This document shows, piece after piece, positions 3,001-6,000 of a stretch of DNA of 8,336 bases. A program made the position numbers. Positions within the stretch are counted from its first letter, which is position 1, and every line of letters begins with the position of its first letter. Origin of the DNA: a virus (lineage: Duplodnaviria > Heunggongvirae > Uroviricota > Caudoviricetes); the IMG/VR virus record IMGVR_UViG_2778261169_000006. The stretch is one strand, 5' to 3'.

Positions 3001-6000
3001 AGCGAAGGTCTTGCAGGAATGCTTAACAATAACTTTTTCTTTTGAGGAGTAAAATATGGGCCGCGCCAATCCTTTATATGGAGCTAATTTTACAGATTCA
3101 AGAATGCCTATTTTTTATCCGTACCCTGGGTTAACTGATGGGTCTCTTGGGTTGCTGGATGCTTATGAAGTGGATGAAAATTTTAATTTATCAGCGACAG
3201 GTACTGATATATCGACAACGCCAAATTTAGCCGCGATTCCAGCCGCCACTTTAACTGGCGTATCGCAGGCTGATTTGGCCTTTAAGTATTCAAACACACT
3301 TGGTAGCACTGAAGTTAAGTTTGAGAGAACACCAAAGCTTGGTATTCATGGCATAGTCTCTCAGGTCAATCAGGTATCTGGCCACCTGGCCCGGTTCCGC
3401 TGCCCTGGCATCCTGCCGTACGTTGTTGCACATCAGAATGATCATCAGTTCGCAGTGTTTGTGCATCATCGTATTACTCGAGATAAGCCGTCATCGACGA
3501 ACCAGAACCCTGTAGAAGTGTTGATGTCGCATAACTCAGCTCCATCTAATAATAAGTTGCTGATTGCCAGTCTGGATGGAGGGTTGACGGGTAATCCAGC
3601 CCTGAAATCTCAAGCGTCAGCAAAAACAGGCACAGATATGGCTGTCGCAACTGCCTACTACGACCATATGGTTTGGGGGTCACCTAGCGGTTTCGGTACG
3701 CTACTGAACAATTTGTGTCGTTCATACGTCCTTTACAGATGGCATTTTATCGATCTCACTGCAGCAGGTATGACCATGGCAGAGGCCACGGCGTCTGAAC
3801 AGGATATCTTTAACAGGCGATTCAGTTCAGGCGGGAAGTACTATGGCGACACGATCCCAACAAATCCGTCTACCTTTCCGTAGCAGCTATTGATCTGCCT
3901 TTAAAGTGCAACCGCTGTATATAAAAACAGTATATGGGAGGGCAGATCATGCTTCGACAGTCAGACATCGCCGCGGCTTTCCGCGAGTCGGTATTGCGCA
4001 ACTCCAAAGGTTTTCAGTACCTGCACACAAAGGATTTTGTGTCAGCGCTGCGCCGGCGTGGGCTGCACTTTACCGACTCAGAGGCTAATGCGTGGATATC
4101 AAGAGAGCAGACGTACTTTGTCGACAAAACCACCGACCATAGCGAAAACCGTTTGTGGATGCTGGCGAACATGGGGAGGGTTTTGTAATGGGCTTTCCTT
4201 CACCGGCGTCTGACTACGTTGAACAGCGTCTGTCCGTTAACTCGATCTGCAATGTCGGCCCTAACACCCGCGTTTTCGAAAGGGATGGCGGTTATGTTGT
4301 GCTGGATATCTCCCTGAAGCCAAAGCAGGGTAGTCAGGTTCTTATCCAGCACGGCGGCGGGACGGAACTTGCCACGTTGAGAGGGCGGTCGCTGATAACC
4401 GAAGATGGCGAAGCGATCGAGGGCGAAGCCCTGGACGATGTTACTGTCATCGGGGTCGTGACATTTACTATCTGCGATGTTCGTTCTGATAATTCTATTA
4501 TTTAATTGGGGTATATATGGCGCTGAAGCTATTAGCCAATAATAACGCAAAGAGTGTGCTCGCTGCGGGTATTAGCGCGTCCGCTACCGTTATTACCGTG
4601 GGTACTGGAGCGGGGTCTTTATTCCCTTCCCCTGTATCTGGGCAGAGTTATTTCAAATTAACGATAACCGACGCGGCCACGAAAACAATTTCTGAAATTA
4701 TGCACGTAACGTCTGTATCCGGTGACGTGATGACAGTAATTCGTGGTCAGGAAGGAACTACGGCACGCGTATGGTCAACGAATGACATTGTCGCGAATTT
4801 AATGACCGCCGGATCATTGTTATCTTTCCTGCAGATCAGCAATAACCTGTCAGAAATTAAAGATGCCGGTGAGGATGCGATAAATGAAGCCCGTTATAAC
4901 CTCGGAATATCTGATTCCTCTGGTTTTGTCGGGCGTTCACTTGGCGCTCCAAAAGCTTTCTATGCAAACGGAACCTATACGCGATCTCCTCTGGCCCGTT
5001 ATGCAAAAGTAACGTTGACCGGTGCCGGTGGCGGCGGTGGCGGCTGCCAGGCCTCCAACAATACAGAAACCTTCTCCGGTGCTGGCGGCGGCGCGGGCGC
5101 GACCATTATCGTATGGGTTGACCTGTCTGCTGCCAGTTCTGATGACTACCCGCTGAAGTGAAAATTGTGTTGTGTACCAAATTGCGTACCAAACTAAAAT
5201 CACAAATCATGAAACCTTGGTTCATGGCGGTTCTCAGGGGTGTTGCTGAACCGTGTTGATACATCAACTGCACCTGATATTGAGTGGCCGGAAGAACCAG
5301 ACACAATGTAAGCGAAAAAGAAAAACCGCAGACACGACGTATGCAGGACGTGCTGCGGTTGGCTGGTGAACTTTCGATAGTGCGAGTATTGAATGATTTC
5401 CAGCCGTTACCGATTTTACGTGTTTATTAGTGAACAAACCACTCGTCAGCAGACTCCCAGGTATCTTTCAGAGTCTCCTGAACAAATGTTTTTGCAGAAT
5501 CTTTATCTGCGGTGCGTGTAACAGAAAGCCCATCGTTGCTGGTGGCTTTTACGATCACCTCTACATCGTCATAACGTTTACTGATGCGTCGGGTTAATTC
5601 TTCCTTTAACGCATCCACAGCACCGTTTGGCATTTTAGTCATTTTTTCTTTGGCTATGCAGATCTCAATACGCATAAAAGTCCCTCTATACTGTGTTTGT
5701 ATACAGTATTATTTTTAACTGTATGGATAAACAGTGTCAAGAGGTCTTATTTCTGCTCCTTTGGAGCTCTTCAAAACGATTATGTAAAGATTTCGGATAC
5801 AGTTCGGTATATACCTGCCATAGCACGTTTAATGAACGATGCCCTGTAACCTGAGCGACTTCCTCAATACTAAAACCAGCCTCAAATAAGCGACTTGCCC
5901 CTTCTCTACGCAAATCATGGTATCGCAGATCTTTAATACCTAATTTGCTTCTTACCCTCTGAAATCCTGCAGTAACAGAAGTGCTGTTATATGGAAAAAT

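What the first reader, a model, noticed from the sequence alone, without database searches (positions are those of the whole stretch)
3913..4505. LexA-box-controlled, translationally coupled bicistron (79-aa unknown protein + UmuD'-mimic) embedded in the tail-fibre region
Seen in sequence: a near-consensus SOS box (CGCTGTATATAAAAACAGTA, 3913-3932) sits 17 nt upstream of ATG 3949. Both cistrons carry the same GGGAGGG Shine-Dalgarno, and the first stop overlaps the second start (TAATG, 4186-4190), implying co-expression and probably a stoichiometric partnership. The 79-aa product has no motif I can recognise. Inference: an SOS-induced prophage accessory module of unassigned function. Candidate roles: (a) a HumD-like translesion-synthesis activator; (b) an SOS-triggered antirepressor or induction switch, since a free catalytically dead S24 domain could heterodimerise with LexA/CI-type repressors; (c) a RecA-filament-directed anti-defence or defence factor. 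It sits between tail-fibre modules, a typical moron position.
Basis: partly seen in the sequence, partly recalled or inferred. Interest (0 to 1): 0.8.

Follow-up and report, generated by a model that had tools for sequence, protein, structure and literature searches.

The report
SOS-controlled prophage UmuD'-like gene pair
A prophage carries a DNA-damage-inducible two-gene unit, a small winged-helix protein plus a shortened, ready-made copy of the UmuD' subunit of the host's error-prone polymerase; it is an untested variant of the known phage P1 HumD gene, common in gut enterobacteria.

Summary
A LexA box (3913-3932) precedes two translationally coupled genes: orf79 (3949-4188) and a 105-aa UmuD'-like gene (4188-4505). 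The box lies 11-23 nt upstream of orf79 in 45 of 46 related loci, and the 46-site consensus is TACTGTATATATATACAGTA. The -35, spacer, box and leader align with the E. coli umuDC control region.

orf79 is predicted to be a basic winged-helix protein. Its family is small, enterobacterial and uncharacterised, and it is unrelated to DinI, Tum or the Gifsy antirepressor. Near-identical orf79 genes pair with either true HumD or the short form, and orf79 also occurs alone behind a LexA box.

Most likely this is an SOS-induced, UmuC-directed UmuD' surrogate with an accessory winged-helix factor. No umuC lies nearby. Two phages carrying the pair have cleavable CI repressors. The window's copy has a mutated putative -10.

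Verdict: new variant of a known kind, moderate interest.

The parts
3890..3895 (+). Putative -35 hexamer TTGATC
   Evidence: TTGATC or a close variant lies exactly 17 nt upstream of the LexA box in most of the 46 loci. The same ATTGATCTGC stands before the E. coli K-12 umuDC operator. Promoter function is inferred, not shown.
3913..3932 (.). LexA (SOS) box CGCTGTATATAAAAACAGTA. Its first six bases occupy the putative -10 position, and here they read CGCTGT instead of TACTGT.
   Evidence: 23.5 bits. It is conserved in 45 of 46 loci and is 18/20 identical to the umuDC operator. Phage 186 p95 is annotated with the same layout, -10 being the first six bases of the LexA site.
3936..3942 (+). Shine-Dalgarno GGGAGGG for orf79
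   Evidence: A purine-rich GGAG/GAGG tract at the same place is seen in relatives.
3949..4188 (+). orf79: 79-aa basic protein predicted to be a winged helix (phrog_3893, function unknown)
   Evidence: - PHROG match, E = 2.9e-39.
- AlphaFold2 pLDDT 90.5, topology H-b-H-H-b-b.
- 84 representatives among 1.84 billion proteins.
- dN/dS 0.13-0.23.
4173..4180 (+). Shine-Dalgarno GGGGAGGG for the second cistron, inside the last codons of orf79 (NMGRV)
   Evidence: The junction ...GGGAGGGT..T(A/G)ATGGG is conserved across loci.
4186..4190 (+). TAATG stop/start overlap (translational coupling)
   Evidence: A TAATG or TGATG overlap is seen in nearly all loci. It is the same style as the umuD-umuC junction CTGATG.
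4188..4505 (+). 105-aa acidic UmuD'-like protein (phrog_3469): a pre-processed, catalytically dead, shortened HumD relative
   Evidence: - PHROG match, E = 1.2e-46.
- HumD NCBIfam model scores 45.9 bits, below the 120-bit cut-off.
- UmuD' arm match.
- Ser60 loop deleted, Lys97 replaced by Ala.
- AlphaFold2 pLDDT 75.8.
- dN/dS 0.12-0.14.
4517..5161 (+). Context only: truncated glycine-rich tail-fibre-like ORF that starts 11 nt after the UmuD'-like stop. It may be co-transcribed.
   Evidence: The full-length counterpart in RothC is 348 aa and lies in the same position. No terminator is predicted between 4505 and 4517.

Best explanation
This is a LexA-repressed accessory operon of a lambdoid prophage. 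Its control region comes from a umuDC-type promoter and operator.

Proposed mechanism:
1. In a lysogen, LexA sits on the box, which overlaps the -10 hexamer, and keeps the unit off.
2. After DNA damage LexA is cleaved and a single transcript is made.
3. Ribosomes translate orf79, a small basic winged-helix protein, and then by stop/start coupling the 105-aa protein.
4. Methionine removal leaves Gly-Phe-Pro-Ser-Pro-Ala at the N-terminus. This is exactly the end that RecA*-stimulated cleavage creates on host UmuD.
5. The protein is therefore a ready-made UmuD' surrogate. I propose that, like P1 HumD, it inserts this arm into the host UmuC and so supplies or tunes Pol V-type translesion synthesis at once, without the slow UmuD-cleavage step. 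That would help an induced prophage copy damaged DNA.
6. orf79 is a separable SOS-induced accessory factor. It binds either DNA or a protein partner. It does not depend on the core of the UmuD'-like protein.

Shown here: the sequence anatomy, conservation of the box and of the coupling, homology to the umuDC control region, the predicted folds, loss of the catalytic residues, purifying selection, and partner swapping.

Inferred: LexA binding, damage induction, UmuC binding, the direction of the effect, and any role for orf79.
For: - Box and promoter conservation.
- Alignment with the K-12 umuDC control region: the same ATTGATCTGC, a 17-nt spacer, a box 18/20 identical and a GGCAGAT leader.
- Phage 186 p95 is annotated with the same -10/LexA overlap.
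- P1 humD and N15 gene 26 have a LexA box directly upstream. The P1 record states that HumD functionally complements UmuD'.
- The short family shares the MGFPSPA..DY.E arm and the C-terminal DDCPV tail with HumD.
- M1 G2 F3 S5 P6 A7 D9 are invariant in 46 family members.
- A published Pol V model places the UmuD' N-terminal end near the UmuC active site. It also reports that armless UmuD' and changes to a single N-terminal residue impair mutagenesis (PMC11791011).
- The predicted fold is closest to UmuD'.
- dN/dS is 0.12-0.23 for both genes.
- The unit is present in 132 of 5426 complete E. coli genomes and in very large Klebsiella protein clusters.
- No umuC lies within 10 kb in 62 loci, so any partner polymerase must come from the host.
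Against: - The protein scores far below the HumD family cut-off (45.9 against 120 bits) and has no Pfam S24 hit.
- The residues that the published model uses to dock the UmuC C-terminus are UmuD' S36/E69/T71/K73, my conversion to UmuD S60/E93/T95/K97. In the short family they are deleted or not conserved. Binding to UmuC may therefore be altered or lost, and the protein could be a blocker rather than an activator.
- orf79 has no assigned role, and it occurs alone behind a LexA box in L049 and L059. The pair may therefore not be one machine.
- The window's own copy has CG in place of TA at the putative -10.
- No experimental data exist for this subfamily in the literature I could search.
Confidence: 0.4

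Rival explanations
1. Pol V decoy. The short protein keeps only the UmuD' arm and the dimer-like core. It would compete with host UmuD' for UmuC, or form heterodimers with UmuD/UmuD'. Either way it damps SOS mutagenesis or the UmuD2C replication checkpoint while the phage replicates.
For: - The catalytic cleft that the published model uses to dock the UmuC C-terminus is dismantled: the S60 loop is deleted and E93, T95 and K97 are not conserved.
- The arm is invariant.
- The family has its own conserved block, LITxDGEAIEGxAL, which is absent from UmuD and HumD.
Against: - True HumD, reported in the P1 record as an activator, occupies the same slot behind near-identical orf79 genes. This suggests the two forms are functionally interchangeable.
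- There is no direct evidence of inhibition.
Confidence: 0.2
2. orf79 is the functional core. It would be an SOS-triggered regulator or antirepressor that binds the prophage repressor or DNA and links induction or another phage decision to LexA. The UmuD'-like gene would be a co-travelling passenger.
For: - orf79 is found alone behind a LexA box in Rahnella L049 and in the nin region of prophage L059.
- It is small, basic and predicted to be a winged helix.
- LexA-controlled small antirepressors are an established class, for example GfoA/GftA, Tum and AntC (PMC3121763).
Against: - No similarity to GftA (hhalign probability 0.2%), Tum (0.1%) or DinI (0.9%).
- mEp390 and RothC carry HTH plus Peptidase_S24 repressors that need no antirepressor.
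- Apart from the -35 and the LexA box, no second conserved operator-like element appears in the aligned upstream regions.
Confidence: 0.13
3. RecA-filament modulator. The pair would act on RecA* in the manner of DinI or PsiB, and tune cleavage of LexA, CI or UmuD.
For: - The unit sits next to a LexA-controlled dinI homologue in this window. In mEp390 it shares the intergenic LexA box with a divergent dinI.
- S24-type domains dock in the RecA* groove. This rests on established knowledge, not on a test made here.
Against: - The cleavage-site strand and the catalytic cleft that RecA* acts on are missing.
- The conserved element is the UmuD' arm, which the published model places on UmuC rather than in the RecA groove.
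Confidence: 0.08
4. Decaying remnant of a captured umuD gene, with no present function.
For: - The window's copy has a damaged putative -10.
- Several loci carry frameshifted copies.
Against: - dN/dS is 0.12-0.23.
- Intact pairs occur across many genera, including Escherichia, Klebsiella, Enterobacter, Leclercia, Kosakonia, Citrobacter, Erwinia and Cronobacter.
- The arm residues are invariant.
Confidence: 0.04

Closest known systems
Phage P1 HumD and N15 gp26 (HumD family, NCBIfam NF051876)
   Same: - Phage-borne and LexA-controlled.
- Begins at the residue equivalent to UmuD' Gly25 (MGFPSPA).
- Acidic, with a C-terminal DDCPV-type tail in most short-family members.
- Placed after the tail-fibre gene in N15.
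- No umuC partner on the phage.
   Different: - About 24 residues shorter.
- Scores 45.9 bits against the 120-bit cut-off.
- Ser60 loop deleted and Lys97 lost, whereas HumD keeps the Lys.
- Has its own LITxDGEAIEG block.
- Preceded by a coupled winged-helix gene that P1 and N15 lack.
E. coli umuDC operon
   Same: - Homologous -35, spacer, LexA box and leader.
- Stop/start-overlap coupling of the two cistrons.
- N-terminal arm nearly identical to UmuD' residues 25-41.
   Different: - The first cistron is an unrelated winged-helix protein instead of the UmuD pro-region.
- No umuC.
- No cleavage site and no catalytic dyad.
impCAB-type plasmid operons (a small DinI-like ImpC upstream of a UmuD homologue; recalled from memory)
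   Same: A small protein of about 80 aa is encoded immediately upstream of a UmuD-like gene under LexA control.
   Different: orf79 is a predicted winged helix and is not DinI-like (hhalign probability 0.9%, no Pfam DinI hit). There is no polymerase gene.
LexA-controlled prophage antirepressor units (Gifsy dinI-gfoA-irsA; 186 tum)
   Same: A LexA box overlaps the promoter of a small-gene operon outside the immunity region. Phage 186 p95 has the same -10/box overlap.
   Different: There is no sequence relationship to GftA or Tum. The carrier phages checked have self-cleaving CI repressors.

Membership tests
HumD family (NCBIfam NF051876, equivalog) | Scores at or above the curated cut-off of 120 bits | tested here: not met
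   45.9 bits. As a control, the partners of orf79 in L034 and L028 score 223 and 205 bits.
HumD family | Made without the UmuD pro-peptide, starting at the residue equivalent to Gly25 | tested here: met
   MGFPSPASDYVEQR aligns to UmuD residues 25-37. M1 G2 F3 S5 P6 A7 D9 are invariant in the family.
HumD family | Functionally replaces UmuD' in UmuC-dependent mutagenesis | not testable with these tools
   This is known for P1 HumD only, from the record annotation. It needs a genetic complementation assay.
Peptidase S24 / UmuD (Pfam PF00717) | Sequence match to the family model | tested here: not met
   No Pfam hit at E <= 0.1.
Peptidase S24 / UmuD | S24 beta-fold | tested here: met
Peptidase S24 / UmuD | Ser/Lys catalytic dyad and a Cys/Ala-Gly cleavage site | tested here: not met
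   The Ser60 loop is deleted and Lys97 is Ala. The protein starts at the Gly, so no scissile bond exists.
LexA (SOS) regulon member | CTGT-N8-ACAG palindrome that matches the LexA consensus and overlaps the promoter | tested here: met
   The overlap with the -10 is inferred from the conserved 17-nt spacing to TTGATC.
LexA (SOS) regulon member | LexA binding and damage induction | not testable with these tools
   Needs EMSA or footprinting, and expression assays.
Complete umuDC-type operon | A Y-family polymerase gene (umuC) immediately downstream | tested here: not met
   tblastn with K-12 UmuC found no hit in the window or in any of 62 loci with up to 10 kb of flank.
Gifsy-type antirepressor (GfoA/GftA) | Sequence relationship to GftA | tested here: not met
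   hhalign probability 0.2%. GftA was taken to be the ORF directly after dinI in Gifsy-2, following the gene order given in PMC3121763.
Gifsy-type antirepressor | The carrier phage has a non-cleavable repressor | tested here: not met
   mEp390 gp37 and RothC CI have HTH_3 plus Peptidase_S24. Only two phages were checked.
Tum (phage 186) | Sequence relationship | tested here: not met
   hhalign probability 0.1%.
DinI / ImpC | DinI-like domain | tested here: not met
   No Pfam DinI hit for orf79. hhalign probability 0.9% against the window's own DinI homologue.
Winged-helix nucleic-acid-binding proteins | H-b-H-H-b-b winged-helix fold | tested here: met
Winged-helix nucleic-acid-binding proteins | Binds DNA | not testable with these tools
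   The median family pI of 8.7 is compatible with DNA binding but proves nothing.
Known anti-phage defence systems (PADLOC) | Match to a defence-system model | tested here: not met
   No hit for either protein.

The most novel reading that the evidence does not exclude
The pair may be a two-part, SOS-triggered phage device that takes control of the host's mutagenic polymerase. The arm-bearing protein lacks the catalytic cleft. It would occupy the UmuD' arm site on UmuC, either blocking or re-targeting Pol V. The winged-helix protein would direct the complex to particular DNA, or act separately as a new kind of LexA-controlled phage regulator. If so, many Klebsiella, Enterobacter and E. coli prophages would carry a previously unrecognised modulator of host SOS mutagenesis.
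Probability: 0.2. Interest if true: 0.7.

Novelty: new variant of a known kind. Interest (0 to 1): 0.45.

Why it matters
Pol V activity is normally delayed by the slow, RecA*-dependent cleavage of UmuD. A prophage gene that supplies a ready-made UmuD' arm at the first moment of the SOS response could change how fast, and how mutagenically, lysogens respond to DNA-damaging antibiotics.

The unit is common. It is present in 132 of 5426 complete E. coli genomes, and the Klebsiella protein clusters hold thousands of members. Any effect on mutagenesis, survival or prophage induction would therefore bear on how resistance evolves in clinical Enterobacterales.

The finding also gives a natural 'minimal' UmuD', made of the arm and a stripped core, and an unstudied winged-helix partner. 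Both could be used to dissect what the UmuD' arm does on UmuC.

Tried and rejected
- **Antirepressor membership.** I compared the orf79 profile with Gifsy-2 GftA, 186 Tum and the window's DinI. There was no relationship.
- **Defence system.** PADLOC gave nothing for either protein.
- **P1 lxr as an orf79 homologue.** tblastn of orf79 found no P1 record, and lxr is a divergent 190-aa gene.
- **Fold libraries.** The afdb50 library was not available. BFVD returned only a family member.
- **Literature.** Searches on antirepressor/LexA/UmuD/prophage, HumD and 'UmuD-like' with prophage and LexA found no study of this subfamily. McLenigan 1999 (PMC94175) is not held.
- **Wider locus search.** The first attempt at search for related loci with the diverse alignment failed because it had no conserved stretch.
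- **Hits P0252 and P0284** in the representative search are repetitive or spurious proteins.
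Full report
**1. What is in the sequence**

The window is the right end of a lambdoid prophage of E. coli, integrated at dusA.
- A tail-fibre gene lies at 31-3045, followed by a 275-aa ORF.
- The finding comes next, then a truncated fibre-like ORF at 4517-5161.
- A dinI homologue lies at 5427-5675 on the minus strand, and an integrase at 5737-6834 on the minus strand.
- dusA and pspG follow.

- The box CGCTGTATATAAAAACAGTA is at 3913-3932.
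- GGGAGGG is at 3936-3942 and the ATG at 3949.
- The TAA at 4186-4188 overlaps the ATG at 4188-4190.
- A second GGGGAGGG is at 4173-4180, and the second stop is at 4503-4505.

Homologues fix the start of the first gene at 3949, not at the upstream ATG at 3934.

**2. Is the LexA box real?**

CTGT-N8-ACAG occurs three times in the window, against 0.10 expected from shuffles. The other two copies precede dinI. A PWM built from E. coli operators recalled from memory gives the box 23.5 bits. The best non-SOS site in the window scores 6.9.

The stronger argument is comparative. I collected 46 loci that encode a relative of the 79-aa protein. They come from one genome per species of Enterobacterales and from phage genomes.
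- In 45 of them a CTG-N10-CAG box, or a one-mismatch version, lies 11-23 nt upstream of the start codon. The surrounding DNA is otherwise diverged.
- The consensus of the 46 boxes is TACTGTATATATATACAGTA, the textbook LexA site.
- The background rate of the loose motif in the same loci is 0.52 per kb.
- A TTGATC-like hexamer sits exactly 17 nt upstream of the box in most loci. The box's left arm, TACTGT, therefore occupies the -10 position.
- Phage 186's SOS promoter p95 is annotated in exactly this way.

The whole control region aligns with that of E. coli K-12 umuDC. The shared elements are ATTGATCTGC, a 17-nt spacer, TACTGTATATAAAAACAGTA (18/20 identical to the window) and a GGCAGAT leader. 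The unit therefore carries a umuDC-type promoter and operator.

One detail is particular to this window. The first two box bases are CG, not TA. This removes the T and A of the putative -10, and no other locus has both changes. LexA half-sites are intact, but the promoter of this copy may be weak.

**3. The second gene**

- The 105-aa product belongs to phrog_3469, 'UmuD-like'.
- Against solved structures, only residues 2-43 match, to UmuD' residues 25-66.
- Alignment with K-12 UmuD shows that it begins at Gly25, the residue exposed by RecA*-stimulated cleavage. About twelve residues that carry the nucleophile Ser60 are deleted, and Lys97 is Ala.
- There is no Pfam S24 hit. The HumD NCBIfam model scores 45.9 bits against a cut-off of 120.
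- Across the family M1 G2 F3 S5 P6 A7 D9 are invariant. Because Met-Gly is a good substrate for methionine removal (established knowledge), the mature protein should start with the same residues as UmuD'.

P1 HumD and N15 gp26 share this arm. They also share a C-terminal DDCPV(I/L) tail with most short-family members. The short form is therefore an internally deleted offshoot of the HumD lineage.

**4. The first gene**

- The 79-aa protein matches only phrog_3893, of unknown function. Pfam, NCBIfam, PADLOC and PDB sequence searches gave nothing.
- An exhaustive HMMER scan of 1.84 billion representative proteins found 84 relatives. Nearly all are about 79 aa long.
- AlphaFold2 gives a confident winged helix (pLDDT 90.5, topology H-b-H-H-b-b).
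- The family is mildly basic (median pI 8.7), whereas its partner is acidic (pI 4.3).
- It is unrelated to DinI/ImpC, Tum or the Gifsy-2 antirepressor.

**5. How the two genes relate**

- In roughly 40 of the 46 loci a UmuD'-like gene follows orf79, nearly always with a TAATG or TGATG overlap. A few copies are frameshifted or cut by contig ends.
- The partner can change. orf79 of L034 and orf79 of L036 are 97% identical, yet one is followed by a true HumD-family protein (223 bits) and the other by the short form. The two partners are 38% identical. HK140 also has the orf79-plus-HumD arrangement.
- HumD occurs without orf79 in P1 and N15, with the LexA box directly upstream.
- orf79 occurs without a partner, still behind a LexA box, in Rahnella L049 and in the nin region of prophage L059.
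- The two genes are therefore separable SOS modules that usually travel together.
- Both are under purifying selection, with dN/dS 0.12-0.23.
- No UmuC homologue lies within 10 kb in any of 62 loci.

**6. Position and spread**

The pair sits after the last tail-fibre or tailspike gene and before attP and int.
- HK97-like siphophages: mEp390, HK140, HK225, LAU1 and the Erwinia and Cronobacter phages.
- Klebsiella lambdoid phages.
- A P22-like remnant in E. coli HS.

It is present in 132 of 5426 complete E. coli genomes, and in Klebsiella protein clusters with thousands of members. The window's first 5.4 kb is 99.7% identical to a different prophage in another E. coli strain, so the cassette moves by recombination.

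**7. Mechanism**

The best reading is a HumD-type unit. LexA cleavage would derepress the promoter. Coupled translation would then yield the winged-helix protein and a pre-processed UmuD' surrogate that acts on host UmuC.

The published Pol V model supports the importance of the arm. [quoted passage not shown] It also reports that armless UmuD', and changes to a single N-terminal residue, impair mutagenesis (PMC11791011).

The same paper, however, docks the UmuC C-terminus onto UmuD' S36/E69/T71/K73. In UmuD numbering these are S60/E93/T95/K97, which are precisely the residues that are missing or changed here. So the short form may bind UmuC differently, or it may act as a decoy. I keep that as the main rival.

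An antirepressor role for orf79 is weakened by two points. It has no homology to known antirepressors, and two carrier phages have HTH plus Peptidase_S24 CI repressors. The stand-alone LexA-controlled copies keep the idea alive.

A RecA*-directed role is suggested only by the neighbouring dinI. A decaying remnant is unlikely given the evidence of selection.

**8. Verdict**

This is not a new kind of system. LexA-controlled phage UmuD' homologues are known, and both genes are already in PHROGs.

Three things are new and untested:
- the stripped-down UmuD' core;
- the coupled winged-helix partner;
- the clear descent of the control region from umuDC.

Interest is moderate.

Noticed in passing
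window 5427-5740 (minus strand): A DinI homologue (Pfam DinI, E = 1.2e-19) forms its own SOS unit. It has a TTGACA-18-AAAAAT promoter-like site and two LexA boxes at 5717-5736 and 5689-5708 (21.8 and 23.5 bits). By eye I see a terminator-like hairpin followed by a T-run at about 5315-5352, although the scan tool did not call it. The gene is monocistronic, with no Gifsy-type antirepressor after it.
   Followed up: partly
window 3913-3918: This copy reads CGCTGT where relatives and E. coli umuDC read TACTGT. Both changes fall on key positions of the putative -10, and the combination is unique among the 46 loci. The identical sequence is present in E. coli NZ_CM136177.1.
   Followed up: partly
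window 4517-5161 and about 5160-5430: A glycine-rich tail-fibre-like ORF starts 11 nt after the UmuD'-like stop and is cut to 214 aa, against 348 aa in phage RothC. Similarity to the Qin-like prophage of NZ_CM136177.1 ends near 5423, which marks a recombination junction with the dusA-prophage end.
   Followed up: partly
window 5737-7960: A tyrosine integrase lies directly upstream of, and divergent from, dusA, followed by pspG. This is the usual layout of elements integrated at dusA. The exact combination of this fibre cassette with this prophage end is found in none of 5426 complete E. coli genomes, since no record covers 80% or more of the window.
   Followed up: partly
L007 10001-10318 and protein P0100: In Raoultella the 3' end of orf79 is replaced by the C-terminal part of a Pin/Hin-type invertase (ELIVERTRAGLAAAREQG). 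P0100 carries a resolvase HTH_7 hit. These are rearrangements next to invertible tail-fibre segments.
   Followed up: no
L054 10513-10770 (phage RothC): RothC carries the pair and also encodes a homologue of the DNA polymerase III theta subunit. Phage P1 likewise has both Hot and HumD. This may be a recurring set of phage-encoded polymerase accessory subunits.
   Followed up: no
L003 4784-4871 (phage mEp390): orf79 is not annotated in mEp390, where a minus-strand ORF is called instead. A single LexA box lies between the divergent dinI and the orf79/UmuD'-like pair and could control both.
   Followed up: partly
L058 3890-4565: This distant pair (P0321 plus a 107-aa partner) has no CTG-N10-CAG box within 110 nt upstream. 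It is the clearest exception to the rule, together with L030.
   Followed up: no
window 31-3045: This is a 1004-aa tail-fibre protein. A near-identical region in other E. coli genomes is annotated as an SGNH/GDSL hydrolase family protein, and it has internal repeats of about 50 aa (DYDPV..MS.. motifs).
   Followed up: no
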